DNA from: the human T2T-CHM13v2.0 reference genome, Homo sapiens
Assembly: GCF_009914755.1 (NCBI RefSeq)
Contig: NC_060940.1
Length of the DNA: 64,000 nucleotides
Reading direction: 5' to 3' (one strand)
How positions within the stretch are numbered: position 1 is the first letter of the stretch; the number at the start of each line of letters is the position of its first letter. The position numbers and the translations under genes are program-made. Below the pieces are notes generated by a model. It saw only the letters and a program-made list of their open reading frames with translations, did not search any database and was not told the DNA's origin. Below are positions 39,644 to 64,000 of the stretch, piece by piece.

Positions 39644-42600
39644 TCATTGGTGATTCCACTCAATTCCATTCAATGATTCCATTCCATTTCTTTCAACAAT
39701 GATTCCCTTAGTTTCTATTCGATGATCCACTTGATTCCATTTGGCGATGATTCCATTCGTGTCCATTCGATGATTCCATTTGATTCCATATGATGATGAT
39801 TCCATTCGATTCCATACCATGATGATTCCATTCGAGTCCATTCAATGGTGATTCCATTCAATTCCATTCGATGATTCCTTCCGATTCCATTCGATGATGA
39901 TGGCATTCGATTCCTTTCAATCATTCCCTTTGATTCCATTCAAAGGTGATTTCATTCAAGTCCATTCGATAATTGCATTCGATTCCATTCTATGATGATT
40001 CCATTCGAGTCCATTTGATGATTCCATTCAATTCAAGTCAATGATGATTCCATTCGATTCCACTCGATGATTCCGTTGGATTCCATTCGATGATGATTCC
40101 ATTCAAATCCATTCGATAATTCAATTCAAGTCCATTCGATGATGATTCCAATCGAATCCATTCAAAGATTCCATTCAATTCCATTCGATGATGATTCCCT
40201 TAGATTCCATTCGATGATTCCACTTGATTCCATTTACGATGATTCCATTCGATTCCATGTGATGAATCCATTCAATTCTATTCAATGATGTTTCCATTTG
40301 ATTCCATTGGACCATGATTGCCTTTGATTCCATTCAATGATTCCATTCGGTTCCATTTGATGATGATTCCGTTCGATTCCATTTCATTATTCCATTTGAT
40401 TCCATTGGATGAGTCCATTCGATTACATTCGATGATTATTCCATTCGAGTGCATTAGATGATTCCATTCGAGTCCATTCGATGATTCCATTCGATTCCAT
40501 TCGATGTTGATTCTGTTCAAATCCATTCGATGATTCCACTCGATTCCATTCGATGACTCCATTTGATCCCATTCGATGATTTCCTGTGATTCCCTTTGAT
40601 GATCATTCTATTTGATTCAATTCGGTGATTTCATTTCATTCCATTCAGTGATGTTTCCATTCGACTGTATTCGATGATGATTCCATTCGACTCCATTCGA
40701 TTATGATTTCATTCAATTCCATTCAATAATGATTCCCTTCGAGTCCATTCGATGATTCCATTCGATTCCATTCAACGATGATTTGATTCGTTTCCATTCG
40801 ATGATTCCATTTGATTCCACTTGATGATGATTCCATTCGAGTCCATTTGATGATTCCATTCGAGTCTATTTATGTATTATATTCGTGTCCACTTCATGAT
40901 TCCATTCAATTCCATTTAATGTTGATTCCATTTGATTCCATTTGATGATTCAGTTCGATTCCTTGCAATGATTCCCTACGATTCCTTTCTCTGATGATTC
41001 CATTCGATTCCATTCATTGATGATTTCATTCGACTCCATTCGATGATGATTCCTTTCGATTCCATTTGACGATGTTTCCATTCGAGTCCATTCGATGATG
41101 ATTCTATTCAATTCTGTTCTATTATGATTCCATTCGATTTCATTCAATGCTTCTATTTGATTCCATTCGATGATGATTCCATCTCTTTCCCTTCGATGAT
41201 TCCATTTGATTCCATTCAGTGATGATTCCATTTGATTCCATCTGATGATGATTTCACTTGATTCCTTTCAATGATGATTCAATTCAAGTCCATTCGATGA
41301 TTCCATTGGAGTCCAAACGATCATTCCGTTCGATTCCATTCAATGGTGATTCCATTCATGTCCATTCGATGAATCCATTCAATTCCATTCTATGATGACT
41401 CCATTCGAGTACATTCGATGATTCCATTTGATTCCATTGGAAGATGATTCCATTCAATTCCATTCGAAGATGATTCCATTCAATTCCATTCGATGATGAT
41501 TCCGTATGAATCCATTCTCTGATTATTCCATTCGATTCCATTCATTGACGATTCCATTCAATTCCATTCAATGATGATTCTCTTCTATTCCATTCGATGA
41601 TTCCGGTCGATTCCATTCGATGATGATTCCATTAGATTCCATTCGATTGTTGCATTCGATTCCCTTCGATGATGATTCCTTTGAATTCCATTCGATTATC
41701 ATTCCGTATGAATCCATTTGATGATTATTCCATTGGATTCCTTTCGATGATGATTCCATTCGATTCCATTTGATGATGTTTCTCTTGTATTCCATTGGAT
41801 AATTCCTTTCAGTTCCCTTCGATGATTATTCTTTCGAGTCAATTCGATGATTCTATTCCATTCCCTTCGATGATGATTCCATTTCACTCCATTTGATGAT
41901 TCCATTCGACTCAATTTGGTGATGATTCAATTCGATGACATTCGATGACTCCATTCAATTTCATTTGATGATGATTACATTCGAGTCCATTTGATGATTG
42001 TATTCCTTTCCTTTTGATGATTATTCCATTCGTGTCTATTCAAAGGTTCCATTCTATTCCATTCAATGATGATTGCATTTGATTCCATTCAATGATTATG
42101 GCTATCGATTCCACTCGTTGATTCCATTTGATTCCGTTCGAGGATTATTCCGTTAGATTCCATTAGAAGATTCCATTCGATTTTATTCAATGATTCCAAT
42201 GGATTCCATTCAATGATGATTCCATTCGACTCCATTCAGTGATTCCATTCGAGTCCATTTGATGATTCCATTCTTTTCCATTTGATGATGATTCCATTAG
42301 GGTCCATTCAATGATTCCATTCGAGTCCATTCGTTAATGCCTTTCGAGTCCTTTTGATCACTACATTCGAGTCCATTCAATGATTCTATTCGATTATATT
42401 CCATGATGATTCCATTCGAGTTCATTCGATGATTGCATTCGAGTCCATTTGATGATTCCATATGATTCCCTTCGACAATGATTCCATTCGTGTCCATTTG
42501 ATGATTCCATTCATTTCCTATCGATGAAGAGTCCATTCAAGTGTATTCGATGCTTCCATTCAAATCCATTCGATGATGATTCCATTCCAGTCCATTCGAT

Positions 42601-43770
42601 CATTCCACTTGATTCCATTTGATGACTATTCCATTCAAATCCATTTGATGATTCCATTCGATTCCATTCGATGTTACCATTCGAGTATATACGATGATTC
42701 CACTCGATTCCATTTGATGATTATTCCATTGGAGTCCACTTAGTGAATCCTTTAGATTCTACTCGAAGATGATTCCATTCGAGTCCATTCGATGATACCA
42801 TTCAATTCCATTCGTTGATGCTTCCATTCAAGTGCATTCGATGATATCATTCGATTCCATTTGATGATAATTCCATTTGATTCCATGCGATGATTCTATT
42901 CGATTCCATTCAATGATAATTCCATTCAATTCAGTGATTCCTCTGGACTCCATTTGATGATGATTCCATTCAATGATTCCATTCGATTCTATTCGAAAAT
43001 GATTCCATTTGAATCCATTTGATGATGATTCCATTGGATTCAATTTGATGATTCCATTCGATTCCATTCGATGATGATTCCATTCGATTCCTTTTGATGA
43101 ATCCATTCTATTGTATTCGATGATGATTCCATTCGATTCCATTCGATGATGATTGGATTCGATTCCATTTGATGATTTCATTTGATTCCATTCGATAATG
43201 ATTTCGATCAATTTCATTCGATGATTCCATTCGATTCCATTCGATAATGATTACATCCGAGTCCATTCGATGATTCCATTTGAGCCCGTTCGATAATTCC
43301 ATTTGAGTCCAATCAATGATTCCATTCATTTCCATTCAATGATTCCATTCGAGTCCATTTGATCATTCCGGTAGGGTCCGTTCGATGTTGATTCCATTGG
43401 AGTGCATTCGATGATTCCATTCGAGTCCATTTTAGGATTTGATTCGAGTCCTTTCGATGATTCCATTCGATTCCACTCGATGATTTCATTCGAGTCCATT
43501 CGACACTTCCAATCGATTCCATTTGATGTTTCCATTCGATTCCAATTGATGATTCCATTCCATTCCATTCGATGATGATTCCGTACGATTCCATTCTGTG
43601 ATGATTCCATGTGATTGCATTCAATGATGATTCCTTTCGATTGCATTCGATTATGATTCATTTCGTGTTCATTCTATGGTTCCACAGGTTTCCATTCGAT
43701 GATGTTTCCATTCGTGTCCATTCCATTATTCCATTCTATTCCATTTGAAGATGATTCCATTCGATTCCAT
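39644..43770 (+). repeat. ~4.1-kb variant unit, copy 3 (4,127 bp)
   Basis: Duplicate of 28569-32695 at +11075. Confidence 0.88.
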
Positions 43771-46700
43771 TCATTGGTGATTCCACTCAATTCCATTCAA
43801 TGATTCCATTCCATTTCTTTCAACAATGATTCCATTAGTTTCTATTCGATGATCCACTTGATTCCATTTGACGATGATTCCATTCGTGTCCATTCGATGA
43901 TTCCATTTGATTCCATATGATGATGATTCCATTCGATTCCATACGATGATGATTCCATTCGAGTCCATTCAATGGTGATTCCATTCAATTCCATTCGATG
44001 ATTCCTTTCGATTCCATTCAATGATGATGGCATTCGATTCCTTTCGATCATTCCCTTTGATTCCATTCAAAGGTGATTTCATTCAAGTGCATTCGATAAT
44101 TGCATTCGATTCCATTCTATGATGATTCCATTCGAGTCCATTTGATGATTCCATTCAATTCAAGTCAATGATGATTCCATTCGATTCCACTCGATGATTC
44201 CATTGGATTCCATTCGATGATGATTCCATTCAAATCCATTCGATAATTCAATTCAAGTACATTCGATGATGATTCCAATCGAATCCATTCAAAGATTCCA
44301 CTCAATTCCATTCGATGATGATTCCCTTAGATTCCATTCGATGATTCCACTTGATTCCATTTACGATGATTCCATTCGATTCCTTGTGATGATTCCATTC
44401 AATTCTATTCAATGATGTTTCCACTTGATTCCATTCGAACATGATTGCCTTTGATTCCATTCAATGATTCCATACGGTTCCATTTGATGATGATTCCATT
44501 CGAGTGCATTAGATGATTCCATTCGAGTCCATTCGATGATTCCATTCGATTCCATTCGATGTTGATTCTGTTCAAATCCATTCGATGATTCCACTCGATT
44601 CCATTCGATGACTCCATTTGATCCCATTCGATGATTTCCTTTGATTCCCTTTGATGATCATTCCATTTGATTCAATTCGGTGATTTCATTTGATTCCATT
44701 CAGTGATGTTTCCATTCAACTCCTTTCGATGATGATTCCATTCGACTCCATTCGATTATGATTTCATTCAATTCCATTCGATAATGATTCCCTTCAAGTC
44801 CATTCGATGATTCCATTCGATTCCATTCAACGATGATTTGATTCGTGTCCATTCGATGATTCCATTTGATTCCATTTGATGATGATTCCATTCGAGTCCC
44901 TTTCATGATTCCATTCAATTCCATTCTCCGATGATTTCTTTTGAGCCCATTCAATGCTTCCACTCGATTCCATATGATGATGACTCCATTTGATGAAATT
45001 CCGTGATGATTCCATTCGCTTGCATTCGATGATGATTCCACTTGAGTCCGTTAGAAGATTCTATTCAATTACATTCCATGACGATTCTGTTCGAGTCCAT
45101 TTGATGATTCCATTAGACTCCATTTGACGATGATTCCATTCGATGTTATTCGATGATGATTCCATTCAACTCCATTCGATGTTTCCATTCGAGTTCATTC
45201 TATTATTCCATTAGATTCCATTCGATGATGATTCCATTCGATTCCATTTGATGATTGCATTCTATTTCATTTGATGATGATTCCATTCGAGTCCATTCGA
45301 TGATTCCATTCGAGTCCATTTAATGAATCCATTGGTTTCAATTCTATGATGATTACATTGGATTCCATTCGTTGATGATTTCATTCGATTCCATTCAATG
45401 ATGATTCCATTCAATTCCATTCAATGATTCCATTCAATTCCATACGATGATGATTCCATTTGATTTGATTCGACAGTGAGCCATTCGATTCAATTCCATG
45501 ATGATTCTATTTTATTCAATTGGTTGACATTTCCATTCGATTCCATTCGATGATGATTCCATTTGATTCCATTCAAAGATGATTCCATTCTAGCCCATTC
45601 AATCATTCCATTCGATTCTATTCAATGATGATTCCATTCATGTCGATTTGGTGATTCCATTTGACTTCATTTGATGATGATTCCTTTCAAGTTCATTAGA
45701 TGATTCCATTCGATTCCATTTGATGATGATCCCATTCGAGTCCATTCAGTGATTCCACTCGTTTCCATTCCATGATGATTCCATTCCATTCCATTCAATG
45801 ATTCCATTCGATTCCGTTTGATGATGATTTCATTCGAGTCCATTTGATGATTCCATTTGATTCCATTCGATGATGATTACATTCGAGTCCATACGATGAT
45901 TCCACTCAATTCCATATGATGATGATTCCATTCGATTCCATTCGATGATTCCATTCTATTCTATTCAATGGTGATTCCATTCGAGTACATTAGATGATTC
46001 CATTCGATTCCATTCAATGATGATTCTATTTGTGTCCCTTAGATGGTTCCACATGATTCCATTTCATGATGATACTATTTGAGCCCATCCAATGATTCCC
46101 TTCGATTCCATTCGATGAGGATTCCATTCGATTCAATTCATTGGTGATTCTATTCAATTCAATTCTTTGATTCAATTCCATTCCATTCGACAATGATTCC
46201 ATTCGATTTCTTTCGATGATTCCACTCGATTCCACTTGACATTGATTCCATTCGATTCCATTCAATGATTCCGTTTGATTCCAGTGGATGATGATTGCCA
46301 TCGATTCCATTCGATCACTCCATTCTATTCCATTTGATGATGATTACATTCGATTCCATTTGATGATTCCATCTGATTCTATTCGAGGATTCCATTTGAT
46401 TCCATTCGATGATGATTCCATTCGAGTGCATTCGATGATTTCATTCGAGTACATCCAATGATTCCATTCGAGTCCATTTGATGATTCCATTTAATTCCAT
46501 TTGATTATGATTCTACTAGAGTCCATTCAATGACTCCATTCGAATCCATTCAACAATTCCATTCGAGGCCATTCGATGATTCCATTTCATGATTCCATTC
46601 GAGTCCATTTAATCATTACAGTCGAGTCCATTTGGTGATTCCTTTCAATTCCATTCTATGATGATTCCATTCGAGTCCATTCGATGATTCCATTCGATTG

Positions 46701-48245
46701 CATTCGATGATTCCATTATATTCCATTCAACAATGATTCCATTCGAGTCCATGCGATGATTCCATTAGAGTACATTTAATGATTGCTTTGTTTTCATTTC
46801 GAAGATGATTACATTGGATTCCATTCTATGATACCATTCGATTCCATTCAATGATGATTCCACTCAAATCCATTGGATGATTCCATTCGTGTCCATTCGG
46901 TGATTTCATTAGATTCCATTCGAGGATGATTCCATTCGATTCCATTCGATGATTCCATTCAATTCCATTCGATGATGATTCCATTCCAGTCCATATGATC
47001 ATTCCATTTGATTTCATTCGATGATGATTCCATTCGATTCCATTCGATGATTCCATTCTATTCCATTCGATGATGATTCCATTCGAGTCCATTCGATGAT
47101 TCCATTCGAGTCCATTTAATGATTCCATTGGGTTCAATTCAATGATGATTACATTGGATTCCGTTCTATGATTCCATTCAATTCCGTTCATTGACAATTT
47201 GATTCCATTCGATGATGATCCCATTTGAGTTCATTCGATGATTCTATTCGATTCTCTTCGATGGTGATTCAATTCTATTATATTGGATGATTCCATTCGA
47301 TTCCATTTGATGTTGATTCAATTCGATTCTATTCGATGATGATTCCATTGGATTTCACTTGATGATTCTATTCGATTCCATTCAATGATGATTCACTTCT
47401 CGTCCATTGGATGATTCCATTTCATTCCATTCGATGATGATTCCATTCGATTCCATTCGATGATTCCATTTGATTCCATGCGACGGTGAGCAATTCGATT
47501 CAATTCCATGATGATTCTATTTGATTCAATTAGATGATGTTTCCATTCGAATCCATTCCATGATTATTCCATTGGAATCCATTCGGCGATGATTCCATAT
47601 GAGTCAATTCAATGATGATTCCATATGGGTCCGTTCGATGATAATTCCATTTGATTTCATTCGATGCTTCTATTCTATTCCAGTCGATGATGATTCCGTT
47701 GGAGTCCATACGATGATTCCATTTGATTTCATTTGATGATGATTCCATTCGATGATGATTACATTGGATTCCATTCTATGATTCCATTCAATTCCATTCG
47801 TTGATGATTCGATTCCATTCAATGATGATTCCATTTGAGTTCATTCGATGATTCTATTCGATTCCGTTCGATGGTGATTCAATTCTCTTATATTGGATGA
47901 ATCCACTCGATTCCATTTGATGATTATTCCATTGGAGTCCACTTAGTGAATCCTTCAGATTCTACTCGAAGATGATTCCATTCAAGTCCATTCGATGATA
48001 CCATTCAATTCCATTCGTTGATGCTTCCATTCAAGTGCATTCGATGATATCATTCGATTCCATTTGATGATAATTCCATTTGATTCCATGCGATGATTCT
48101 ATTCGATTCCATTCAATGATAATTCCATTCAATTCAGTGATTCCTCTGGACTCCATTTGATGATGATTCCATTCAATGATTCTATTCGATTCTATTCGAT
48201 AATGATTCCATTTGAATCCATTTGATGATGATTCCATTCGATTCC
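43771..48245 (+). repeat. Duplicate of the truncated unit carrying the 650-bp deletion
   Basis: Matches 32696-37170 at +11075. Deletion junction at ~46636. Confidence 0.85.
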
Positions 48246-51200
48246 ATTCGATTCCATTTGACGATGATTTGATTCGTGTCCATTCGATGATTCCATTTGA
48301 TTCCACTTGATGAGGATTCCATTCGAGTCCATTTGATGATTCCATTCAATTCCATTCTCCGATGATTTCTTTTGAGCCCATTCAATGCTTCCACTCGATT
48401 ACATATGATGATGACTCCATTCGATGAAACTCGATGATGATTCCATTCGCTTGGATTCGATGATGATTCCACTTGAGTCCGTTAGAAGATTCTATTCAAT
48501 TACATTCCATGACGATTCCGTTCGAGTCCATTTGATGATTCCATTACACTCCATTCGACAATGATTCCATTCAATGTTATTCGATGATTCCATTCGATCT
48601 CATTCGATGATGATTCCATTCAACTCCATTCGATGTTTCCATTCGAGTTCATTCTATTATTCCATTAGATTCCATTCGATGATGATTCCATTCGATTCCA
48701 TTTGATGATTGCATTCTATTTCATTTGATGATGATTCCATTCGAGTCCATTCGATGATTCCATTCGAGTCCATTTAATGAATCCATTGGTTTCAATTCTA
48801 TGATGATTATATTGGATTCCATTCGTTGATGATTTCATTCGATTCCATTCAATGATGATTCCATTCAATTCCATTCAATGATTCCATTCAATTCCATGCG
48901 ATGATGATTCCATTTGATTTGATTCGACAGTGAGCCATTCAATTCAATTCCATGATGATTCTATTTGATTCACTTGGTTGACATTTCCATTCGATTCCAT
49001 TCGATGATGATTCCATTTGATTCCATTCAAAGATGATTCCATTCTAGCCCATTCAATCATTCCATTCGATTCTATTCAATGATGATTCCATTCATGTCGA
49101 TTTGGTGATTCCATTTGACTTCATTTGATGATGATTCCTTTCAAGTTCATTAGATGATTCCATTCGATTCCATTTGATGATGATCCCATTCGAGTCCATT
49201 CAGTGATTCCACTCGTTTCCATTCCATGATGATTCCATTCCATTCCATTCAATGATTCCATTCGATTCCGTTTGATGATGATTTCATTCGAGTCCATTTG
49301 ATGATTCCATTTGATTCCATTCGATGATGATTCCATTCGAGTCCATTCGATGATTCTATTCGAATCCATTTGATGATTTCTTTTGATTATATTTGGTGAT
49401 GATTCCATTGGAGTCCATTCAATGATTCCATTCGATTCCAATCGATGGTGGTTCCATTAGAGTCCATTTAATGATTCCATTTGATTCCAGTCTCTGATGT
49501 TTACATTCGAGTCCATACGATGATTCCACTCAATTCCATATGATGATGATTCCATTCGATTCCATTCGATGATTCCATTCTATTCTATTCAATGGTGATT
49601 CCATTCGAGTACATTAGATGATTCCATTCGATTCCATTCAATGATGATTCTATTTGTGTCCCTTAGATGATTCCACATGATTCCATTAGATGATGATACT
49701 ACTTGAGCCCATCCAATCATTCCCTTCGATTCCATTCGATGAGGATTCCATTCGATTCAATTCATTGGTGATTCTATTCAATTCAATTCTTTGATTCCAT
49801 TCCATTCCATTCGACAATGATTCCATTCGATTTCTTTCGATGATTCCACTCGATTCCACTTGACATTGATTCCATTCGATTCCATTCAATGATTCCATTT
49901 GATTCCAGTGGATGATGATTGCCATCGATTCCATTTGATCACTCCATTCTATTCCATTTGATGATGATTACATTCGATTCCATTTGATGATTCCATCTGA
50001 TTCTATTCGAGGATTCCATTTGATTCCATTCGATGATGATTCCATTCGAGTCCATTCGATGATTTCACTCGAGTACATCCAATGATTCCATTCGAGTCCA
50101 TTTGATGATTCCATTTCATTCCATTTGATTATGATTCTACTAGAGTCCATTCAATGACTCCATTCGAGTCCATTCAACAATTCCATCCGAGTCCATTCGA
50201 TGATTCCATTCGATTTCATTTGATGATTCCATTCGAGTCCATTTAATCATTACAGTCGAGTCCATTTGGTGATTCCACTGGATTTCTTTTGATAATGATA
50301 CCATTCAATTACATTTGATGATGATCCCATTCAATTTCATTTGATGATGATTCCATTAGAGTCCATTCCATGATTTCATTCGAGTCCCTTCATTGATTCC
50401 ATCCGATTTCATTTCATGATGACTCCATTCGAGTCCATTCGATGATTCCACTCGATTCCATTAGATGATTCCATTGGAGTCCATTTGATTGTTCCATTCG
50501 ATTCCATTCGATTCCTTTCGAAGATTATTCCATTTGAGTCCATTCGATGATGATTCCATTCCATTCCATTCGATGATTCCGTTTGATTCCATTCGATGAT
50601 TCCCTGCGATTCCTTTCTATGATGATTCCATTCCATTCCATTCAATGATTCCATTCGAATCTATTCCATGATGATTCCTTTCGATTCCATTCGCTTATGT
50701 TTCCGTTCAATTCCATTCGATGATGATTCCATTCGATTCCATTCATTGAGGATTCCATTGGATTCCATTCAATGATGATTCCATTCTATTCCATTCAATG
50801 ATTGCATTCAATTCCATTCAATGATTATGCCATTAGAGTAAATTCAACGATTCCATTCAATACCATTCGATGATGATTCCTTTTGAGTCCATTCAATGAT
50901 TTAATTCAAGTCCATTTGATGATTCCTTTCAATTCCATTCCATGATGATTCCATTCGAGTCCATTCGATGATTCCATTCGATTGCATTCGATGATTCCAT
51001 TATATTCCATTCAACGATGATTCCATTCGAGTCCATTCGATGATTCCATTAGAGTACATTTAATGATTGCTTTGTTTTCAATTCGAAGATGATTACATTG
51101 GATTCCATTCTATGATTCCATTCGATTCCATTCATTGATGATTCCACCCAATTCCATTCGATGATGATTCCATTCGATTTCATTCAATGATTCTACTCGA

Positions 51201-54200
51201 TTCCATTCAATGATGATTCAATTCTATTCCGTTTGATGATTCCATTAGATTCCATTCTATGATGATTCCATTCGAGTCCATTCGAAGATTTCATTCGATT
51301 ACATTCCATGACGATTCCATTCGAGTCCATTCGATGATTCCATTTGAATCCATTCGACGATGATTCCATTTGATGCTATTCGATGATTCCATTGGATTCC
51401 ATTCGATGATGATTCCATTCGACTTGATTTGATGTTTCTATTTGAGTCCATTCGGTTATTTTATTAGACTACATTCGATGATGATTCCATTCGATGCCAT
51501 TCAATGATTCCATTTGATTCCACTCAATGATGATTGCATTCGTGTCCATTCGATGATTCCATTTGGTTCCATTTGATGATGATTCCATTCGAGTCCATTC
51601 GATGATACCATTCAATTCCATTCGATGATCATTCCATTCGAATCCATTTGATGATTCCACTCAATTCCATTTGATGACTCCTTTCATTCCCATTCGATGA
51701 TTCCCTTCAGTTCCAATTGGATGATCTTTCCATTTGATTCAATATGGTGACTCCATTCTATTATATTCAATGATGATTCCATTCGACTCCATTAGATGAT
51801 GACTCCATTCCATTCCATTCGATTGTGATTTCATTCGATTCCATTCGAAGATGATTCCATTCGAGTCCATTTGATGATTCCATTCGATTCCATTCAATGA
51901 TGATTCCACTCAAATCCATTGGATGATTCCATTCGTTTCCAATCGGTGATTTCATTAGATTCCATTCGAGGATGATTCTATTCGAGTCCATTCAATGATT
52001 CCATTGGATTCCGTTTGATAATGATTCCATTAGAGTTCATTCGATGATTCCCTTCGAGTCCATTCGATTATTTCTTTTGATTCCATTTGATGATGATTCC
52101 ATTCGATTCCATTCAATGATTCCATTCCATTCCATTCGATGATGATTCCATTCGATAATGATTACATTCGAGCCCATGTGATGATTCCATTAGATTCTAT
52201 TCAATGATGATTCCATTCGACCACATTCGATGATGGCATTCGAGTCCATTCGATGATTTCACTCGATTCCACTTGATGATGATTCCTTTTGAGTCCATTT
52301 GATGATTACATTCGAGTCCATGAGATGACTCCATTCGATTCCATTTCATGATGATGCAATTCGAGGCTATTCGATCATCCCATTTTAGTGCATTCGGTGA
52401 TTCTCTTTTATTACATTCGATGAGGGCTCCATTCGAGTCCATTCAATGATTCCATTAGATTCCACTCGATGATGATTCCATTTGAGTCCATTCAAAGATT
52501 CCTTTCGAGTCCATTCGATAATTCTATTGGATTCCACTAGGTGATGATTCCTTTCGAGTCAATTCGATGATTCCTTTCAAGTGCCTTCAATGATTCCATT
52601 CGATTCCATTCGATGACGATTCATTTCAAGTCCATTCAATGGTTCCATTCTGTTGAATTTGATGGTTCCATTTGATTCCATTCGATGATGATTCCATTCG
52701 TGTCCATTGGATGATTCCATTCGATTCCTTTCGAGGAAGATTCCATTCGACTCCATTCGATGATTCCGTTCGATTCCATTCCATGATGATTCCATTTGAT
52801 TCCATTCCATGATTCCATTCGATACCATTCGATGATGATTCCATTCGACTCCATTTGATGAATCCATTCAATGCTTCCATTCGAGTCCATTCGATGATTC
52901 CATTCGATTCCATTCCATGAAGATTCCATTCGAGTACATTTGATGATTCCATTTAATTCCATAGGATGATGATTCTATTAGGGTCCGTTGACTATTCCAT
53001 TCAATTCCATTCGAAGATTCCATTCGAGTCCACTCGATGATTCTATTTGATTCCATTTGATAATTCCATTCGATTCCATTTGATGTTGATTCCATTCGAG
53101 TCCATTCGATCATTATTACATTTGATTCTATTCGATGATTCCATTCGATTCCATTTGATGAGGATTCCATTCGAGACCATTTGATGATTCCATTCAATTC
53201 CATTGGATGATTCCAATATTTTCCATTAGATGATGATTCCATTCGATTCCATTCAATGATGATTCCATCAGAATCCATTCGATGATGACTCCTTTTGCTT
53301 CCATTCAATGATCATTACATTCGGTTCCATTCGATGATGATTCCTTTGGATTCCATTCGATGATGCTTCCATTCGATTCCATTTGATGATGATTCTTTTC
53401 GATTCCATTTGATGATGATTCCATTTGATTCCATTCGATGGTGATTCCATTTGATGATTCCATTCGATTGTATTCGATGATGATTCCACTCGATTCTATT
53501 TGATGATGACTGCATTCGATTCCATTTGATGATTCCATTTGATTCCATTCGATGATGATTCTGATCAATTGCATTCGATGATCCATTCGATTCCATTTGA
53601 TGGTTCCATTTGATTCCATTTGATAATGATTCCTTTCGAGTCCATTCGATGATTCCATTTGCGGATATTCGATAATTCCATTTGAGTCCAACCGATGATT
53701 CCATTCGAGGCCATTCAATCATTCTTTTTGAGTCCTTTCGATAAAGATTCCATTTTAGTCCATTCAATAATTCCACTGGAGTCCATTCGATGATTGCTTT
53801 TAATTCCATTCGATGATATTCCATTCGAGTCCATTCGATGATTCCATTCGTTGCTATTAGATGATGATTCCATTCATGACCATTTGGTGATTCCATTCGA
53901 TTTCATTCGTTGATGATTCCATTCGAGTCCATTCCATGATTCCATTCAAGTCCATTTGATGATTTCTTTGAATTCAATTCGATGATGATTCCATTCGAGT
54001 CCATTCGATGATTCCATTCAGTTCCATTCGATGATGATTCCTTTCGAGACCATATGATGATTCCATTTGATTTCATTCGATGATGATTCCATTCGATTCC
54101 ATTCGATGATTCCATTCTATTCCATTCGATGATGATTCCATTCGAGTCCATTTAATGATTCCATTGGGTTCAATTCAATGATGATTACATTGGATTCTCT

Positions 54201-57200
54201 TCTATGATACCATTCAATTCCGTTCATTGACAATTTGATTCCATTCGATGATGATTCCATTTGAGTTCATTCGATGATTCTATTCGATTCTCTTCGATGG
54301 TGATTCAATTCTATTATATTGGATGATTCCATTCGATTCCATTTGATGTTGATTCAATTCGATTCTATTCGATGATGATTCCATTGGATTTCATTTGATG
54401 ATTCTATTCGATTCCATTCAATGATGATTCACTTCTCGTCCATTGGATGATTCCATTTCATTCCATTCGATGATGATTCCATTCGATTCCATTCGATGAT
54501 TCCATTTGATTCCATTCGACGGTGAGCAATTCGATTCAATTCCATGATGATTCTATTTGATTCAGTTAGATGATGTTTCCATTCGAATCCATTCCATGAT
54601 TATTCCATTGGAATCCATTCGGCGATGATTCCATATGAGTCAATTCAATGATGCTTCCATATGGGTCAGTTCGATGATAATTCCATTTGATTTCATTCGA
54701 TGCTTCTATTCAATTCCAGTCGATGATGATTCCGTTGGAGTCCATACGATGACTCCATTTGATTTCATTTGATGATGATTCCATTCGATTCCATTCGATG
54801 ACTCCATTCTGTTCCATTCGATGATGATTCCATTCGAGTCCATTCGATGATTCCATTCGAGTCCATTTCATGATTCCATTGGGTTCAATTCGATGATGAT
54901 TACACTGGATTCCATTCTATGATTCCATTCAATTCCATTCGTTGATGATTCGATTCCATTCAATGATGATTCCATTTGAGTTCATTCGATGATTCTATTC
55001 GATTCCGTTCGATGGTGATTCAATTCTATTATATTGGATGATTCCATTCGATTCCATTTGATGATGATTCCATTCGATTCCATTCGATGATGATTCCATT
55101 TGATTCCATTTGATGTTGATTCTATTCGATTCTATTCAATGATGATTCCATTCGATTTCATTTGATGATTCTATTCGATTCCTTTCGATGATTCTATTCC
55201 ATTCCATTCGATGATGATTCAATTCTCTTCCATTGGATGATTCCATTTTATTCCATTCGACGATGACTCCATTTGATTCCATTCAATGATGATTCCATTC
55301 GATTCCATTCGGTGATTCCATTTGATTCCATTCGACGGTGAGCAATTTGATTCAATTCCATAATGATTCTATTTGATTCAATTAGATGATGTTTCCATTC
55401 GAATCCATTCGGTGATGATTCCATTGGTATCCATTCGACCATGATTCCATATGAGTCAATTCGATGATGATTCCATACGAGTCCGTTGGATGATAATTCC
55501 ATTTGATTTCATTCAATCCTTCTATTCGATTCCATTTGATGATGATTCCATCTGAATCCATTCTCCGATTCCATTCGATTTCATTCGATGCTTCTATTTG
55601 ATTTCATTCGAAGATGATTCCTTTCAATTCCGTTCATTAATTCCATTTGATTCCATTCGATGATGATTCCATCCGATTCCATTGGATGATGATTCCATTC
55701 GAGTCCATTCGATGATTCCGTTCTAATCCATTCTATGATTCCATTCGAGTCCATTCGATGATTCCATTCGATTCCATTCAGTGATGATTCCATTTGATTC
55801 CATCTGATGATGATTTCATTTGATTCCATTCGATGATGATTCCATTGGAGTCCATTGAATGATTCAATTCAATTCCATTCCATGTGGATTCCATTCGAAT
55901 TCATTCGATTATTCCATTCAAATCCCTTCGTTGATTCCATCTGATTCCACTTGACGATGATTCCATTCAAGTCCAATCGATGATTCCATTCGGTTCCATT
56001 CAATGATTCCATTCGAGTCCATTTATGTATTATATTCGTGTCCACTTGATGACTCACTCCATTCAATTCCATTTAATGATGATTCCATTTGATTCCATTT
56101 GATGATTCAGTTCGATTCCTTACAATGATTCCCTACGATTCCTTTCTATGATGATTCCATTCGATTCCATTCATTGATGATTCCATTCGACTCCATTCAA
56201 TGATGATTCCTTTCGATTCCATTTGACGATGTTTCCATTTGAGTCCATTCGATGATGATTCCATTGGTATCCATTCGACGATGATTCCATATGAGTCAAT
56301 TCGATGATGATTCCATACGAGTCCGTTGGATGATAATTCCATTTGATTTCATTCAATCCTTCTATTCGATTCCATTTGATGATGATTCCATCTGAATCCA
56401 TTCACCGATTCCATTCGATTTCATTCGATGCTTCTATTTGATTTCATTCGAAGATGATTCCTTTCAATTCCATTCATTAATTCCATTTGATTCCATTCGA
56501 TGATGATTCCATCCGATTCCATTGGATGATGATTCCACTCGAGTCCATTCGATGATTCCGTTCTAATCCATTCTATGATTCCATTCGAGTCCATTCGATG
56601 ATTCCATTCGATTCCATTCAGTGATGATTCCATTTGATTCCATCTGATGATGATTTCATTTGATTCCATTCGATGATGATTCCATTGGAGTCCATTGAAT
56701 GATTCAATTCAATTCCATTCCATGTGGATTCCATTCGAATTCATTCGATTATTCCCTTCAAATCCCTTCGTTGATTCCATCTGATTCCACTTGACGATGA
56801 TTCCATTCAAGTCCAATCGATGATTCCATTCGGTTCCATTCAATGATTCCATTCGAGTCCATTTATGTATTATATTCGTGTCCACTTGATGACTCACTCC
56901 ATTCAATTCCATTTAATGATGATTCCATTTGATTCCATTTGATGATTCAGTTCGATTCCTTACAATGATTCCCTACGATTCCTTTCTATGATGATTCCAT
57001 TCGATTCCATTCATTGATGATTCCATTCGACTCCATTCGATGATGATTCCTTTCGATTCCATTTGACGATGTTTCCATTTGAGTCCATTCGATGATGATT
57101 CAATTCAGTTCTGTTCTATTATGAATCCATTCGATTTCATTCAATGCTTCTATTTGATTCCATTGGACGATGATTCCATCTCTTTCCCTTCGATGTTTCC

Positions 57201-60200
57201 ATTTGATTCCATTCAGTGATGATTCCATTTGATTCCATCTGATGATGATTTCACTTGATTCATTTCAATGATGATTCCATTCAAGTCCATTCGATGATTC
57301 CATTGGAGTCCAAACGATCATTCCATTCGATTCCATTCAATGATGATTCCATTCATGTCCATTCAATGAATCCTTTCAATTCCATTCGATGATGACTCCA
57401 TTCGAGAACATTCGATGATTCCATTTGATTCCATTTGATGATGATTACATTCAATTCCATTCGAAGATGATTCCATTCAATTCCACTTGATGATGATTCC
57501 GTATGAATCCATTCGCTGATTATTCCATTCGATTCCATTCATTGACGATTCCATTCGATTCCATTCAATGATGATTCTCTTCTATTCCATTCGATGATTC
57601 CGGTCGATTCCATTCGATGATGATTCCATTAGATTCCATTCGATTGTTGCATTCGATTCCCTTCGATGATGATTCCTTTGAATTCCATTCGATTATGATT
57701 CCGTATGAATCCATTTGATGATTATTCCATTGGATTCCTTTCGATGATGATTCCATTCGATTCCATTTGATGATGTTTCTCATGTATTCCATTTGATAAT
57801 TCCTTTCAATTCCCTTCGATGATGATTCTTTCGAGTCAATTCGATGACTCTATTCCATTCCCTTCGATGATGATTCCATTTCACTCCATTCGATGATTCC
57901 ATTCGATTCAATTTGGTGATGATTCAATTCGATGACATTCGATGACTCCATTCAATTTCATTTGATGATGATTACATTCGAGTCCATTTGATGATTGTAT
58001 TCCTTTCCTTTTGATGATTATTCCATTCGTGTCTATTCAAAGATTCCATTCTATTCCATTCAATGATGATTCCAATTGATTCCATTCAATGATTATGGCT
58101 ATCGATTCCACTCGTTGATTCCATTTGATTCCATTCGATGATTATTCCGTTAGATTCCATTAGGAGATTCCATTCGATTTTATTCAATGATTCCAATTGA
58201 TTCCATTCAATGATGATTCCATTCGACTCCATTCAGTGATTCCATTTGAGTCCATTTGATGATTCCATTCGAGTCCATTTGATGATTCCATTCTTTTCCA
58301 TTTGATGATGATTCCATTAGGGTCCATTCAATGATTCCATTCGAGTCCATTCGTTAATGCCTTTCGAGTCCTTTTGATCACTACATTCGAGTCCATTCAA
58401 TGATTCTATTCGATTCCATTCCATGATGATTCCATTCGAGTTCATTCGATGATTGCATTCGAGTCCATTTGATGATTCCATAAGATTCCATTCGACAATG
58501 ATTCCATTCGTGTCCATTGGATGATTCCATTCATTTCCTATCGATGAAGATTCCATTCGAGTGTATTCGATGATTCCATTCAAATCCATTCGATGATGAT
58601 TCCATTCCAGTCCATTCGATCATTCCACTTGATTCCATTTGATGACTATTCCATTCAAATCCATTTGATGATTCCATTCGATTCCATTCGATGTTACCAT
58701 TCCAGTATATACGATGATTCCACTCGATTCCATTTGATGATTATTCCATTGGAGTCGACTTAGTGAATCCTTTAGATTCTACTCGAAGATGATTCCATTC
58801 GAGTCCATTCGATGATACCATTCAATTCCATTCGTTGATGCTTCCATTCAAGTGCATTCGATGATATCATTCGATTCCATTTGATGATAATTCCATTTGA
58901 TTCCATGTGATGATTCTATTCCATTCCATTCAATGATAATTCCATTCAATTCAGTGATTCCTCTGGACTCCATTTGATGATGATTCCATTCAATGATTCC
59001 ATTCGATTCTATTCGAAAATGATTCCATTTGAATCCATTTGATGATGATTCCATTCGATTCCATTTGATGATTCCATTCGATTCCATTCGACGATGATTC
59101 CATTCGATTCCATTTGATGATTCCATTCTATTCTATTCGATGATGATTCCATTCGATTCCATTCGATGATGATTGGATTCGATTCCATTTGATGATTTCA
59201 TTTGATTCCATTCGATGATGATTTCGATCAATTCCATTCGATGATTCCATTCGATTCCATTTGATAATGATTACATCCGAGTCCATTCGATGATTCCATT
59301 TGAGCCCGTTCGATAATTCCATTTGAGTCCAATCAATGATTCCATTCATTTCCATTCAATGATTCCATTCGAGTCCATTTGATCATTCCGGTAGGGTCCG
59401 TTCGATGTTGATTCCATTGGAGTGCATTCGATGATTCCATTCGAGTCCATTTTAGGATTTGATTCGAGTCCTTTCGATGATTCCATTCGATTCCACTCGA
59501 TGCGATGATGATTTCATTCGAGTCCATTCGACACTTCCAATCGATTCCATTTGATGTTTCCATTCGACTCCAATTGATGATTCCATTCAATTCCATTCGA
59601 TGATGATTCCGTACGATTCCATTCTGTGATGATTCCATGTGATTGCATTCAATGATGATTCCTTTCGATTGCATTCGATTATGATTCATTTCGTGTTCAT
59701 TCTATGGTTCCACAGGTTTCACATCGTGTCCATTCCATTATTCCATTCTATTCCATTTGATGATGATTCCATTCGATTCCATTCATTGGTGATTCCACTC
59801 AATTCCATTCAATGATTCCATTCCATTTCTTTCAACAATGATTCCATTAGTTTCTAATCGATGATCCACTTGATTCCATTTGACGATGATTCCATTCTTG
59901 TCCATTCGATGATTCCATTTGATTCCATATGATGATGATTCCATTCGATTCCATACGATGATGATTCCATTCGAGTCCATTCAATGGTGATTCCATTCAA
60001 TTCCATTCGATGATTCCTTTCGATTCCATTTGATGATGATGGCATTCGATTCCTTTCAATCATTCCCTTTGATTCCACTCAAAGGTGGTTTCATTCAAGT
60101 CCATTCGATAATTGCATTCGATTCCATTCTATGATGATTCCATTCGAGTCCATTTGATGATTCCATTCAATTCAAGTCAATGATGATTCCATTCGATTCC

Positions 60201-60913
60201 ATTCGATGATTCCATTGGATTCCATTCGATGATGATTCCATTCAAATCCATTCGATAATTCAATTCACGTCCATTCGATGATGATTCCAATCGAATCCAT
60301 TCAAAGATTCCATTCAATTCCATTCGATGATTCCCTTAGATTCCATTCGATGATTCCACTTGATTCCATTTACGATGATTCCATTCGATTCCATGTGATG
60401 ATTCCATTCAATTCTATTCAATGATGTTTCCATTTGATTCCATTCGACCATGATTGCCTTTGATTCCATTCAATGATTCCATTCGGTTCCGTTTGATGAT
60501 GATTCCGTTCGATTCCATTTGATGATTCCATTTGATTCCATTGGATGAGTCCATTCGATTACATTCGATGATTATTCCATTCGAGTGCATTAGATGATTC
60601 CATTCGAGTCCATTCGATGATTCCATTCGAGTCCATTCGATGATTCCATTCGATTCCATTCGATGTTGATTCTGTTCAAATCCATTCGATGATTCCACTC
60701 GATTCCATTCGATGACTCCATTTGATCCCATTCGATGATTTCCTTTGATTCCCTTTGATGATCATTCCATTTGATTCAATTCGGTGATTTCATTGGATTC
60801 CATTCAGTGATGTTTCCATTCGACTCCATTCGATGATGATTCCATTCGACTACATTCGATTATGATTTCATTCAATTCCATTCGATAAAGATTCCCTTCG
60901 AGTCCAATCGATG
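48241..60913 (+). repeat. 12,673-bp long HSat2 unit, full copy
   Basis: 48481 GTTAGAAGAT recurs at 61154 (+12673). ORFs 49121/61794 recur at +12673, and 49686/62358 and 50409/63081 at +12672. Contains ~6.5 kb not present in the 6,112-bp HOR. Confidence 0.88.
55413..57101 (+). repeat. 840-bp tandem duplication inside the long unit
   Basis: CCATTGGTATCC at 55421 and 56261; ORFs 55581/56421 and 55869/56709. Only a few substitutions between copies. Confidence 0.93.
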
Positions 60914-63900
60914 ATTCCATTCGATTCCATTCAACGATGATTTGATTCGTGTCCATTCGATGATTCCATTTGATTCCACTTGATGATGATTCCATTCGAC
61001 TCCATTTGATGATTCCATTCAATTCCATTCTCCGATGATTTCTTTTGAGCCCATTCAATGCTTCCACTCGATTACATATGATGATGACTCCATTCGATGA
61101 AACTCGATGATGATTCCATTCGCTTGCATTCGATGATGGTTCCACTTGAGTCCGTTAGAAGATTCTATTCAATTACATTCCATGACGATTCCGTTCGAGT
61201 CCATTTGATGATTCCATTACACTCCATTCGACAATGATTCCATTCAATGTTATTCGATGATTCCATTCGATCTCATTCGATGATGATTCCATTCAACTCC
61301 ATTCGATGTTTCCATTCGAGTTCATTCTATTATTCCATTAGATTCCATTCGATGATGATTCCATTCGATTCCATTTGATGATTGCATTCTATTTCATTTG
61401 ATGATGACTCCATTCGAGTCCATTCGATGATTCCATTCGAGTCCATTTAATGAATCCATTGGTTTCAATTCTATGATGATTATATTGGATTCCATTCGTT
61501 GATGATTTCATTCGATTCCATTCAATGATGATTCCATTCAATTCCATTCAATGATTCCATTCAATTCCATACGATGATGATTCCATTTGATTTGATTCGA
61601 CAGTGAGCCATTCGATTCAATTCCATGATGATACTATTTGATTCACTTGGTTGACATTTCCATTCGATTCCATTCGATGATGATTCCATTTGATTCCATT
61701 CAAAGATGATTCCATTCTAGCCCATTCAATCATTCCATTCGATTCTATTCAATGATGATTCCATTCATGTCGATTTGGTGATTCCATTTGACTTCATTTG
61801 ATGATGATTCCTTTCAAGTTCATTAGATGATTCCATTCGATTCCATTTGATGATGATCCCATTCGAGTCCATTCAGTGATTCCACTCGTTTCCATTCCAT
61901 GATGATTCCATTCCATTCCATTCAATGATTCCATTCGATTCCGTTTGATGATGATTTCATTCGAGTCCATTTGATGATTCCATTTGATTCCATTCGATGA
62001 TGATTCCATTCGAGTCCATTCGATGATTCTATTCGAATCCATTTGATATTTCTTTTGATTATATTTGGTGATGATTCCATTGTGGTCCATTCAATGATTC
62101 CATTCGATTCCAATCGATGGTGGTTCCATTAGAGTCCATTTAATGATTCCATTTGATTCCAGTCTCTGATGATTACATTCGAGTCCATACGATGATTCCA
62201 CTCAATTCCATATGATGATGATTCCATTCGATTCCATTCGATGATTCCATTCTATTCTATTCAATGGTGATTCCATTCGAGTACATTAGATGATTCCATT
62301 CGATTCCATTCAATGATGATTCTATTTGTGTCCCTTAGATGATTCCACATGATTCCATTAGATGATGATACTACTTGAGCCCATCCAATCATTCCCTTCG
62401 ATTCCATTCGATGAGGATTCCATTCGATTCAATTCATTGGTGATTCTATTCAATTCAATTCTTTGATTCCATTCCATTCCATTCGACAATGATTCCATTC
62501 GATTTCTTTCGATGATTCCACTCGATTCCACTTGACATTGATTCCATTCGATTCCATTCAATGATTCCATTTGATTCCAGTGGATGATGATTGCCATCGA
62601 TTCCATTTGATCACTCCATTCTATTCCATTTGATGATGATTACATTCGATTCCATTTGATGATTCCATCTGATTCTATTCGAGGATTCCATTTGATTCCA
62701 TTCGATGATGATTCCATTCGAGTCCATTCGATGATTTCATTCGAGTACATCCAATGATTCCATTCGAGTCCATTTGATGATTCCATTTCATTCCATTTGA
62801 TTATGATTCTACTAGAGTCCATTCAATGACTCCATTCGAGTCCATTCAACAATTCCATCCGAGTCCATTCGATGATTCCATTCGTTTCCATTTGATGATT
62901 CCATTCGAGTCCATTTAATCATTACAGTCGAGTCCATTTGGTGATTCCACTGGATTTCTTTTGATAATGATACCATTCAATTACATTTGATGATGATCCC
63001 ATTCAATTTCATTTGATGATGATTCCATTAGAGTCCATTCCATGATTTCATTCGAGTCCCTTCATTGATTCCATCCGATTTCATTTCATGATGACTCCAT
63101 TCGAGTCCATTCGATGATTCCACTCGATTCCATTAGATGATTCCATTGGAGTCCAGTTGATTGTTCCATTCGATTCCATTCGATTCCTTTCGAAGATTAT
63201 TCCATTTGAGTCCATTCGATGATGATTCCATTCCATTCCATTCGATGATTCCGTTTGATTCCATTCGATGATTCCCTGCGATTCCTTTCTATGATGATTC
63301 CATTCCATTCCATTCAATGATTCCATTCGAATCTATTCCATGATGATTCCTTTCGATTCCATTCGCTGATGTTTCCGTTCAATTCCATTCGATGATGATT
63401 CCATTCGATTCCATTCATTGAGGATTCCATTGGATTCCATTCAATGATGATTCCATTCTATTCCATTCAATGATTGCATTCAATTCCATTCAATGATTAT
63501 GCCATTAGAGTAAATTCAACGATTCCATTCAATACCATTCGATGATGATTCCTTTTGAGTCCATTCAATGATTTCATTCAAGTCCATTTGATGATTCCTT
63601 TCAATTCCATTCCATGATGATTCCATTCGAGTCCATTCGATGATTCCATTCGATTGCATTCGATGATTCCATTATATTCCATTCAACGATGATTCCATTC
63701 GAGTCCATTCGATGATTCCATTAGAGTACATTTAATGATTGCTTTGTTTTCAATTCGAAGATGATTACATTGGATTCCATTCTATGATTCCATTCGATTC
63801 CATTCATTGATGATTCCACCCAATTCCATTCGATGATGATTCCATTCGATTTCATTCAATGATTCTACTCGATTCCATTCAATGATGATTCAATTCTATT

Positions 63901-64000
63901 CCGTTTGATGATTCCATTAGATTCCATTCTATGATGATTCCATTCGAGTCCATTCGAAGATTTCATTCGATTACATTCCATGACGATTCCATTCGAGTCC
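60914..64000 (+). repeat. Partial second copy of the 12.67-kb unit, running off the window
   Basis: Shares long-unit SNPs (CGATTACATATG, GAAACTCG, TCCCTGCG) and continues into long-unit-only sequence: 63800-64000 matches ~51130-51328. Confidence 0.88.

What the first reader, a model, noticed from the sequence alone, without database searches (positions are those of the whole stretch)
48241..60913. The 12,673-bp unit looks like the preserved progenitor of the 6,112-bp HOR, with exact length accounting
Seen: the HOR is collinear with the long unit apart from four missing blocks. These are 762 bp (~51119-51880, at HOR ~4260), 2,013 bp (~51971-53983, at ~4350), 105 bp (~54783-54887, at ~5172) and 3,676 bp (~55037-58712, at ~5321). 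Small indels: +23 in the HOR (~4520), and +5 (~59502) and +23 (~60615) in the long unit. 12673-762-2013-105-3676+23-5-23=6112. All four breakpoints fall within ~1.1 kb of the HOR, each at short GATTCC/CATTCGAT homology. Inference: the dominant HOR arose by serial deletion of this unit and then expanded, leaving the ancestor at the array margin, analogous to layered expansion of alpha satellite. I do not know whether this derivation has been described.
Basis: partly seen in the sequence, partly recalled or inferred. Interest (0 to 1): 0.8.

Follow-up and report, generated by a model that had tools for sequence, protein, structure and literature searches.

The report
Long and short chr16 HSat2 units
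The common 6.1-kb repeat of the chromosome 16 satellite 2 array is a cut-down version of an older 12.7-kb layout, but the long version is not a leftover at the array's edge: about a hundred near-identical copies lie scattered all along the array.

Summary
The rotated alignment of 1-6112 with 48241-60913 has exactly the gaps claimed: 762, 2013, 105 and 3676 bp missing from the short unit, +23 in it, and +5 and +23 in the long unit. Identity is 98.0% over 6,089 columns.

The direction, deletion from a long layout, is supported. Blocks 1 and 2 have no paralogue above 81%. A chr7 HSat2 copy is collinear with block 2, block 4 and both block-4 junctions. Two inverted copies at the true ends of the chr16 array keep the long layout.

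- The window lies about 2.9 Mb inside a 39.54-52.19 Mb array.
- The long left junction of block 4 occurs 106 times, in at least 46 clusters between 39.6 and 50.6 Mb.
- A grid-sampled long unit 9.2 Mb away is 99.7% identical.
- The interior long units carry changes of their own: a 23-bp loss and probably an extra 840-bp subrepeat.

They are a sister lineage, not the preserved progenitor. No unit with only some of the deletions was seen (0 of 27). The 6,112-bp unit is already in print. The derivation was not found in five searches.

The parts
1..1381 (+). Tail of a short (6.1-kb) unit, equal to long-unit positions 11270-12673
   Evidence: k-mer map
1382..7493 (+). Short unit, 6,112 bp. It has all four joined junctions (4252|4253, 4349|4350, 5165|5166, 5320|5321) and the 23-bp piece 4497-4519 that interior long units lack
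7494..13605 (+). Short unit, 6,112 bp
13606..23751 (+). Composite unit, 10,146 bp. It has the short-type layout with all four joined junctions, plus an inserted 4.1-kb segment (unit 8603-12673 and 95 bp more) that carries the last 1.87 kb of block 4
23752..33734 (+). Composite unit, 9,983 bp. It is built like the previous one, with a further 170-bp loss (unit 1091-1260)
33735..37165 (+). Truncated short-type unit, 3,431 bp. It ends at unit 10817, where it is joined to unit position 1
37166..44809 (+). Recombinant unit, 7,644 bp. Its first 963 bp are 100% identical to the head of the long unit. It then jumps to unit 6257 in short-type sequence and carries the 4.1-kb insert. Together with the previous part it forms the 11,075-bp period
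   Evidence: the 11,075 period spans 27954-49227 at 99.9% identity
44810..48240 (+). Second copy of the truncated short-type unit
48241..60913 (+). Long unit, 12,673 bp
   Evidence: The genome holds 106 copies of its J4 left junction
51112..51873 (+). Block 1, 762 bp, absent from short units
   Evidence: Best paralogue in the window 80.9%. Present in both array-end copies
51874..51970 (+). 97-bp island kept in short units between deletions 1 and 2
51971..53983 (+). Block 2, 2,013 bp, absent from short units
   Evidence: Best paralogue 76.1%. chr7 is collinear with unit 3903-5316 at 82-93%
54777..54881 (+). Block 3, 105 bp, absent from short units. It has a 95-97% paralogue about 690 bp upstream
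54882..55036 (+). 155-bp island kept in short units between deletions 3 and 4
55037..58712 (+). Block 4, 3,676 bp, absent from short units. Its last 1.87 kb is also present in the composite units
55385..57108 (+). Tandem 840-bp duplication inside block 4 (55385-56268 against the same stretch +840), 98.4% identical over 884 bp. chr7 and the 52.19-Mb edge copy have one copy fewer
60914..64000 (+). Start of a second long unit, 99.4% identical to the first over 3,087 bp. Its junctions lie just past the window at chr16:49292617, 49295691 and 49299348. No third long unit follows

Best explanation
The chr16 HSat2 array is built from variants of one multi-kilobase nested tandem repeat.

**Ancestral layout (inferred).** It was long, about 11.8-12.7 kb, with blocks 1-4 in place.

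**Short lineage.** One lineage lost four blocks clustered in a 7.6-kb stretch and kept islands of 97, about 800 and 155 bp between them. Three of the four breakpoints lie in short in-register repeats. This fits unequal or slipped exchange between HSat2 subrepeats. One multi-jump replication event is also possible. The 6.1-kb product then amplified to most of the array.

**Long lineage.** It persisted, changed on its own (a 23-bp loss, probably a gained 840-bp subrepeat) and was itself re-amplified recently. It was spread in clusters of 1-7 units, apparently carried inside larger duplicated segments.

**Composite units.** Exchange between the two lineages made the 10-11 kb composite units. The window samples one such transition zone.

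**Shown:** the anatomy, the counts, the long layout in chr7 and at both array ends, and the homogeneity of the long units. **Inferred:** the recombination mechanism, the number of deletion events and the order of amplification.
For: - **Exact four-gap alignment:**
- **Blocks are not recent copies:** block 1 is at most 80.9% and block 2 at most 76.1% identical to anything else in the window, against 98% for the shared parts.
- **chr7 outgroup:** it holds the exact 53-base long-type J4 left junction. Independent 300-bp windows hit unit 3903-5316 and unit 6539-11987 on a near-constant diagonal. Over unit 3903-5052 and 9256-11987 identity is 85-93% against 78-84% for the second-best site.
- **Array-end copies:** the 52.19-Mb copy is 97.7% identical over unit 2429-13046 with all four blocks. 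The 39.54-Mb copy is 97-98% identical over unit 2528-7700.
- **Block-4 tree:** chr7, then the 52.19-Mb edge copy, then two starred clades, composite (7 of 7 rows) and long (9 of 9 rows).
- **Segment between blocks 2 and 3:** short 25 of 25 rows in one clade (99/94), long 9 of 9 (100/99), and both edge copies on branches of their own.
- **Whole-genome junction counts:**
  - short J4: 1,132 at 1 mismatch or fewer
  - short J4: 1,668+3 at 2 or fewer, which includes long-type copies at distance 2
  - long J4 left: 103 forward + 3 reverse
  - long J2 left: 98
  - J4 right: 349
- **Grid sample:** a grid-sampled long unit at 40.0 Mb is 99.7% identical to the window's.
Against: - There is only one non-chr16 outgroup. 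It is not collinear over unit 5316-6539, so it says nothing on J1, J2 or J3. Those rest on two edge copies and on the lack of a donor for the blocks.
- No ape or other human assembly could be consulted.
- In the flank right of block 4 the short-type copies are not one clade (3 changes), so exchange between lineages blurs any tree.
- Eight of the nine long copies in the trees were the best matches to the window's own copy. They are therefore biased towards similarity. The unbiased evidence for homogeneity is one grid sample, plus 98 exact matches among the 100 listed of 106 junction hits.
- The microhomology at J3 is nil.
- If the 840-bp duplication arose after the split, the historical block-4 deletion was about 2.8 kb, not 3,676 bp.
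Confidence: 0.8

Rival explanations
1. One reading: the 12,673-bp unit at 48241 is the preserved progenitor itself. It was left at the margin of the array while the short unit, made by four successive deletions, expanded away from it.
For: The gap arithmetic is exact and the deletion direction is supported. Inverted long-layout copies do sit at the real ends of the array, so a layered picture is not absurd for the array as a whole.
Against: - The window is about 9.7 Mb from the proximal end and 2.9 Mb from the distal end.
- The local cluster is 2 long units among at least 46 clusters.
- Long units are 99.7% alike across 9.2 Mb.
- chr7 sides with the long unit 22 times and the short unit 19 times at 42 differing sites.
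- The long units have a private 23-bp loss.
- 0 of 27 unit passes is a stepwise intermediate.
Confidence: 0.05
2. The short unit is ancestral and the long unit arose from it by four insertions, or by import of foreign HSat2 segments from another chromosome.
For: Short-type copies are more numerous and more varied than long ones. This could be read as greater age.
Against: - No donor exists in the short unit for blocks 1 and 2.
- chr7 has block 4 joined on both sides to sequence that the short unit shares, in the long order.
- Two edge copies outside the long clade have all the blocks.
- The composite lineage carries a block-4 piece about 4% diverged from the long units' copy (identity, tree).
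Confidence: 0.04
3. The direction is deletion, but the four gaps arose in one complex event rather than serially. The likely mechanism would be template switching during replication or repair, which skips forward four times and copies short islands in between.
For: - All four gaps lie in one 7.6-kb stretch, with small retained islands of 97 and 155 bp.
- No partial intermediate occurs in 27 passes.
- The long-type J2 and J4 counts nearly match, 98 against 106.
- In the one segment that lies among the junctions, all 25 short-type copies are a single clade.
Against: Intermediates could simply have been lost to homogenisation. Thirteen junctions are unpaired (7 J2 left, 6 J4 left) and were not inspected, so some could be partial forms. 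J1 and J3 were not counted genome-wide.
Confidence: 0.35

Closest known systems
The published 6,112-bp chr16 satellite unit (SRF paper PMC10153287, passage seen, which credits Altemose 2022), and the nested tandem repeats (NTRs) of HSat2/3 found with NTRprism (bioRxiv 10.1101/2021.07.12.452052, passages seen)
   Same: It is the same array and the same 6,112-bp period. The preprint states that periodicity varies along HSat arrays and that NTRs expand very locally. The window shows exactly this.
   Different: In the passages I could read, neither paper mentions a 12.7-kb form, its relation to the 6.1-kb unit, the junctions or the counts. Their supplementary figures were not available to me and may show the periodicities.
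Structural variants of alpha-satellite higher-order repeats made by unequal crossing-over (for example HOR variants that lack several monomers), and the layered-expansion model of centromeric arrays (the model is described in the passages; the HOR examples are recalled)
   Same: A dominant unit and minority length variants differ by internal deletions at homologous subrepeats. Variants lie in local clusters. Older, more divergent forms lie at the array ends.
   Different: No discrete monomers showed up here: block sequence aligns to the rest of the window at about 74-81% in many registers, though monomer structure was not tested directly. The array is not a centromere core. The long form is interspersed through the interior rather than confined to flanking layers.
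DYZ1, the 3.6-kb HSat3 unit on Yq, and other multi-kilobase HSat units (the unit sizes of 3,569 and 2,420 bp on chrY are in the passage; the DYZ1 name is recalled)
   Same: It is a multi-kilobase repeat unit built of diverged CATTC-derived sequence and amplified to megabases.
   Different: It is a different family and chromosome, and I know of no comparable long/short pair described there.

Membership tests
Human satellite 2 (HSat2) | Diverged CATTC-derived sequence with strong strand asymmetry, rich in the ATTCCATTCG-type decamer | tested here: met
   In the window CATTC occurs 2,592 times on the + strand and 2 on the reverse. ATTCCATTCG occurs 935 against 0. CCATTCGATT, the complement of the 'HSat2Anc' decamer named in PMC11305138, occurs 346 against 0.
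HSat2 subfamily B | The subfamily-specific 24-mer sets of Altemose 2014 | not tested
   The k-mer sets were not available. A passage of PMC11622622 says the CHM13 annotation labels the whole chr16 array HSat2B.
Nested tandem repeat (NTR, as defined in 10.1101/2021.07.12.452052) | A multi-kilobase unit repeated head to tail and made of simple-repeat-derived sequence without discrete equal monomers | tested here: met
   Periods of 6,112 and 12,672/12,673 bp in the window. Long-unit spacings of 12,660-12,673 bp in 34 of 51 within-cluster steps. Internal paralogy is only 74-81% in many registers.
Higher-order repeat in the alpha-satellite sense | A unit composed of a whole number of discrete monomers of similar length | tested here: inconclusive
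   Monomer structure was not analysed as such. Block sequences align to the rest of the unit at about 75% in many shifted registers, which does not suggest discrete kilobase monomers.
Relic layer at an array margin (layered expansion) | The older form lies at the edge of the array, outside the younger expanded form | tested here: not met
   The window lies 2.9 Mb from the distal and 9.7 Mb from the proximal end. Long junctions lie in at least 46 clusters between 39.6 and 50.6 Mb. Separately, diverged inverted long-layout copies do lie at both true ends.
Deletion derivative of the long unit | An outgroup carries the unjoined (long) arrangement | tested here: met
   chr7 for block 2, the J4 left junction, block 4 and the J4 right junction. 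Array-end copies for all four blocks. chr7 is uninformative for J1, J2 and J3.

The most novel reading that the evidence does not exclude
The chr16 HSat2 array may keep a readable, datable history:
- an old long-layout array whose remnants survive inverted at both ends, as if one large inversion had turned the interior;
- a single-origin 6.1-kb derivative made in one multi-jump deletion event, which swept to about two thirds of the array;
- a long lineage re-amplified very recently inside 60-70 kb super-units copied at megabase spacing.

If so, junction-specific markers could measure rates and modes of satellite turnover across human haplotypes.
Probability: 0.25. Interest if true: 0.5.

Novelty: new member of a known kind. 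Interest (0 to 1): 0.33.

Why it matters
HSat2 on chr16 is one of the largest satellite arrays in the genome, and how such arrays turn over is poorly known.

This result gives a concrete case with base-exact junctions: a dominant unit that is a deletion derivative, a coexisting ancestral-layout lineage, and recombinants between them. The junction sequences are near-unique markers (106 against more than 1,100 copies). They could be counted in pangenome assemblies or long reads to type chr16 heterochromatin haplotypes.

It is a refinement within known satellite dynamics, not a new kind of element. No function is implied.

Tried and rejected
- **Systematic 160-kb grid.** The positional picture therefore rests on one 0.8-Mb grid (15 samples inside the array) and on junction pattern listings capped at 100 rows.
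- **Megablast of chr7 against the units.** With an 86% identity filter it returned nothing. It was replaced by windowed blastn.
- **Whole-genome DNA search with the chr7 piece.** Only 11 of 20,806 candidates were scored. All were on chr16 at 74-78%, and the query's own locus was not among them. It gives no information on other chromosomes.
- **Junction scan with 22-mers and 3 mismatches.** It matched everywhere in the satellite and was discarded. It was replaced by anchor distances.
- **Pattern by reference.** Not accepted by the tool.
- **Paper look-ups.** Two ids recalled from memory were not held. I therefore did not see the Altemose 2022 review or the journal version of the centromere paper.
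- **Not done.** J1 and J3 were not counted genome-wide. The 13 unpaired long junctions were not inspected.
- **Considered and rejected.** An assembly artefact is unlikely because the long unit recurs about 106 times with constant structure. The long unit is not a dimer of two diverged short units, because the blocks show no elevated similarity to the short unit at any register.
Full report
**What was checked**

The window is T2T-CHM13 chr16:49,228,001-49,292,000. It is strongly strand-asymmetric CATTC-derived satellite: CATTC occurs 2,592 times on the + strand and 2 on the reverse, and ATTCCATTCG 935 against 0. A passage of PMC11622622 says the CHM13 annotation labels the whole 12.7-Mb chr16 array HSat2B. 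I did not test the subfamily.

I rotated the first 6,112-bp unit into register (short 1382 = 48241) and aligned it globally to 48241-60913. This gives seven gaps and no others (first pass):
- 762 bp (51112-51873)
- 2013 bp (51971-53983)
- +23 in the short unit (4497-4519)
- 105 bp (54777-54881)
- 3676 bp (55037-58712)
- +5 in the long unit (59498-59502)
- +23 in the long unit (60593-60615)

6,089 aligned columns are 98.03% identical and the arithmetic closes at 6,112.

The islands kept between the gaps are uniquely placed. The 97-bp island matches at 96.9% against 85.4% for the next best site, and the 155-bp island at 98.1% against 91.0%. So there really are four gaps, not two placed ambiguously.

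Three junctions lie in exact in-register repeats of 23, 8 and 10 bp. J3 has none. Random pairs at the same distances reach 8 bp in 3.2% and 20 bp in 0.07% of 20,000 trials.

**The window is a mosaic, not a short-unit array followed by long units**

Offsets of 6,112, 9,970/9,983, 10,123/10,146, 11,075 and 12,672/12,673 bp all occur. Alignment of each stretch to the long unit gives this layout:

| Window coordinates | Content |
|---|---|
| 1382-13605 | two short units |
| 13606-23751 | composite unit, 10,146 bp |
| 23752-33734 | composite unit, 9,983 bp |
| 33735-37165 | truncated short-type unit |
| 37166-44809 | recombinant unit |
| 44810-48240 | second copy of the truncated unit |
| 48241-60913 | long unit |
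| 60914-64000 | start of a second long unit, 99.4% identical |

- The composite units have the short-type layout with all four joined junctions. They also carry an inserted 4.1-kb segment (unit 8603-12673 plus 95 bp) that brings back the last 1.87 kb of block 4.
- The recombinant's first 963 bp are 100% identical to the head of the long unit. It then jumps to unit 6257.
- Position 48241 is therefore a rearrangement junction that occurs twice, not a natural unit boundary.

**Where the long unit lies in the genome**

The assembly could be searched.
- Grid samples at 36.0-39.2 Mb do not map to the unit, and those at 40.0-51.2 Mb all do. That is 5 outside and 15 inside of 20.
- The exact short-type J4 junction first appears at 39,549,347.
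- Long-type junctions on the reverse strand lie at 39,542,163 and 52,191,018.
- The array therefore spans about 39.54-52.19 Mb, in line with the 12.7 Mb stated in the preprint passage. The window is about 2.9 Mb from its distal end.

Whole-genome pattern counts:

| Junction | Mismatches allowed | Forward | Reverse |
|---|---|---|---|
| short J4 | 1 or fewer | 1,132 | 0 |
| short J4 (includes long-type copies at distance 2) | 2 or fewer | 1,668 | 3 |
| long J4 left | 1 or fewer | 103 | 3 |
| long J2 left | 1 or fewer | 98 | 0 |
| J4 right | 2 or fewer | 349 | 0 |

- The 99 zero-mismatch J4 right junctions listed are the long-unit type. The one listed 1-mismatch hit has the composite-type base, so the rest are presumably composite.
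- Of the 98 J2 left junctions, 91 pair with a listed J4 left junction, 80 of them at exactly +3,074 bp.
- The 97 listed forward J4 left junctions form 46 clusters of 1-7 units: 20 singletons, 11 pairs, 10 triples and 5 larger. They lie between 39.6 and 50.6 Mb and are densest at 39.5-42 Mb.
- Spacings are mostly 12,660-12,673 bp, with a minority near 11,820-11,830 bp.
- The window's cluster is two units.

My rough estimate from these counts is that long units make up about 1.3 Mb, or about 10% of the array. Composite units make up about a fifth and plain 6.1-kb units about two thirds. In the 15 in-array grid samples, 1 is long, 5 contain the composite-type block-4 piece and 9 are short-type only.

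**Direction of change**

*No donor for the blocks.* Blocks 1 and 2 are not copies of anything the short unit holds. Their best matches elsewhere in the window are 80.9% and 76.1%, near the 74-78% that any HSat2 stretch reaches in many registers.

*chr7 outgroup.* The one long-type J4 left junction outside chr16 is on chr7. I cut ten kilobases around it into 300-bp windows and searched each one independently against the long unit.
- The windows hit unit 3903-5316 (inside block 2), then unit 6539-11987 on a near-constant diagonal.
- The second stretch covers J4 left, block 4 less one 840-bp subrepeat, J4 right and the flank shared with short units.
- Identity is 85-93% over unit 3903-5052 and 9256-11987, against 78-84% for the second-best sites.
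- Between unit 6539 and 8846 internal paralogues score nearly as well.
- chr7 is not collinear over unit 5316-6539, so it says nothing on J1, J2 or J3.

*Array-end copies.* The two reverse-strand copies at the array ends have the long layout.
- The 52.19-Mb copy is 97.7% identical over unit 2429-13046, with all four blocks.
- The 39.54-Mb copy is 97-98% identical over unit 2528-7700.

*Trees.*
- Last 1.5 kb of block 4: chr7, then the 52.19-Mb edge copy, then two starred sister clades, composite (7 rows) and long (9 rows). Block 4 therefore predates the split of those lineages.
- Segment between blocks 2 and 3: all 25 short-type rows form one clade (99/94) and the 9 long rows another (100/99). 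The two edge copies stand on branches of their own. The long layout thus sits on three of four lineages.
- Flank right of block 4, rooted on chr7: the edge copy is near the base. The short-type rows need three changes, which shows exchange between lineages.

Together these results support deletion.

**Why the long unit is not a preserved progenitor**

- A grid-sampled long unit at 40.0 Mb is 99.7% identical to the window's.
- 98 of the 100 listed junction hits (of 106) are exact. The family is young or strongly homogenised.
- The eight other long copies I used were picked as best matches, so their similarity is biased.
- At 42 sites where the window's long and short units differ and chr7 aligns, chr7 has the long state 22 times, the short state 19 times and another base once.
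- In the segment between blocks 2 and 3, the short units and both edge copies are 816 bp and the long units 793 bp. The 23-bp difference is therefore a loss in the long lineage.
- Block 4 of the long unit holds a tandem 840-bp duplication, 98.4% identical over 884 bp. chr7 and the 52.19-Mb edge copy have one copy fewer.
- Long-unit spacings of about 11.82 kb also exist. The ancestral unit may therefore have been about 11.8 kb, and the historical fourth deletion about 2.8 kb.

**One event or several**

Between an anchor left of J1 and one right of J4, 27 unit passes in the held sequence give only three kinds of distance:
- 25 at the short distance (1,347-1,362 bp)
- 1 at the long distance (7,880 bp)
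- 1 edge copy (7,132 bp)

None is intermediate. Seven J2 left and six J4 left junctions lack a listed partner. I did not inspect them, and six J4 hits were unlisted. Serial deletion is thus unsupported but not excluded. A single multi-jump event fits the clustering and the small retained islands equally well.

**Literature**

- The SRF paper (PMC10153287, passage seen) lists a 6,112-bp unit on chr16 as reported previously.
- The centromere preprint (10.1101/2021.07.12.452052, passages seen) names such units nested tandem repeats. It says periodicity varies along HSat arrays and that units expand very locally, and it points to a supplementary figure I could not see.
- Five full-text searches found no paper describing a 12.7-kb chr16 unit or this derivation.
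- The Altemose 2022 review and the journal version of the centromere paper were not held under the ids I tried.

**Verdict**

The sequence observation is excellent. The deletion direction is supported. The claims of 'ancestor at the margin' and 'preserved' are wrong for this locus. The result is a well-resolved example of ordinary satellite turnover with some new detail.

Noticed in passing
chr16:41.88-47.97 Mb (outside the window; positions): Clusters of long units recur with the same internal spacing. For example +23,382, +12,660, +12,664, +21,277 occurs at 42,977,530, and nearly the same at 41,968,916, 44,254,115, 46,472,531 and 47,917,379. A pair of long units follows about 0.6 Mb after several of them. 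This suggests that 60-70 kb super-units, and perhaps megabase blocks, were copied within the array.
   Followed up: partly
chr16:39,541,100-39,546,500 (L030) and 52,185,501-52,195,500 (L031): Both ends of the array carry long-layout units in the opposite orientation to the 12.6-Mb interior, 2-3% diverged from interior long units. One large inversion of the interior, or old flanking layers, would each explain this. Only 10 kb was read at each end.
   Followed up: partly
chr7:59,346,001-59,356,000 (L029, reverse strand): A chr7 HSat2 stretch is collinear with about 7 kb of the chr16 long unit at about 85-93%. It has about 1.2 kb of unrelated HSat2 in place of unit 5316-6539. Whether it sits in a tandem array of such units was not examined.
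   Followed up: partly
window 37166-38128 and 48241-49203: These 963 bp are 100% identical, and the junction before them (unit 10817 joined to unit 1) occurs twice. The 11,075-bp composite at 27954-49227 therefore arose by duplication of a segment that already abutted a long unit.
   Followed up: yes
window 54062-54341 versus 54777-55050 (unit about 5821-6100 versus 6537-6810): An older internal duplication of about 0.3 kb lies within the long unit. Block 3 is 95-97% identical, and the 155-bp island 91%, to sequence about 700 bp upstream.
   Followed up: partly
short-type J4 junctions genome-wide: The short junction comes in at least three single-base variants just left of the breakpoint (seen). 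This explains why 1,132 copies match at 1 mismatch or fewer and about 1,570 at 2 or fewer. The variants may mark sub-lineages of the short unit.
   Followed up: no
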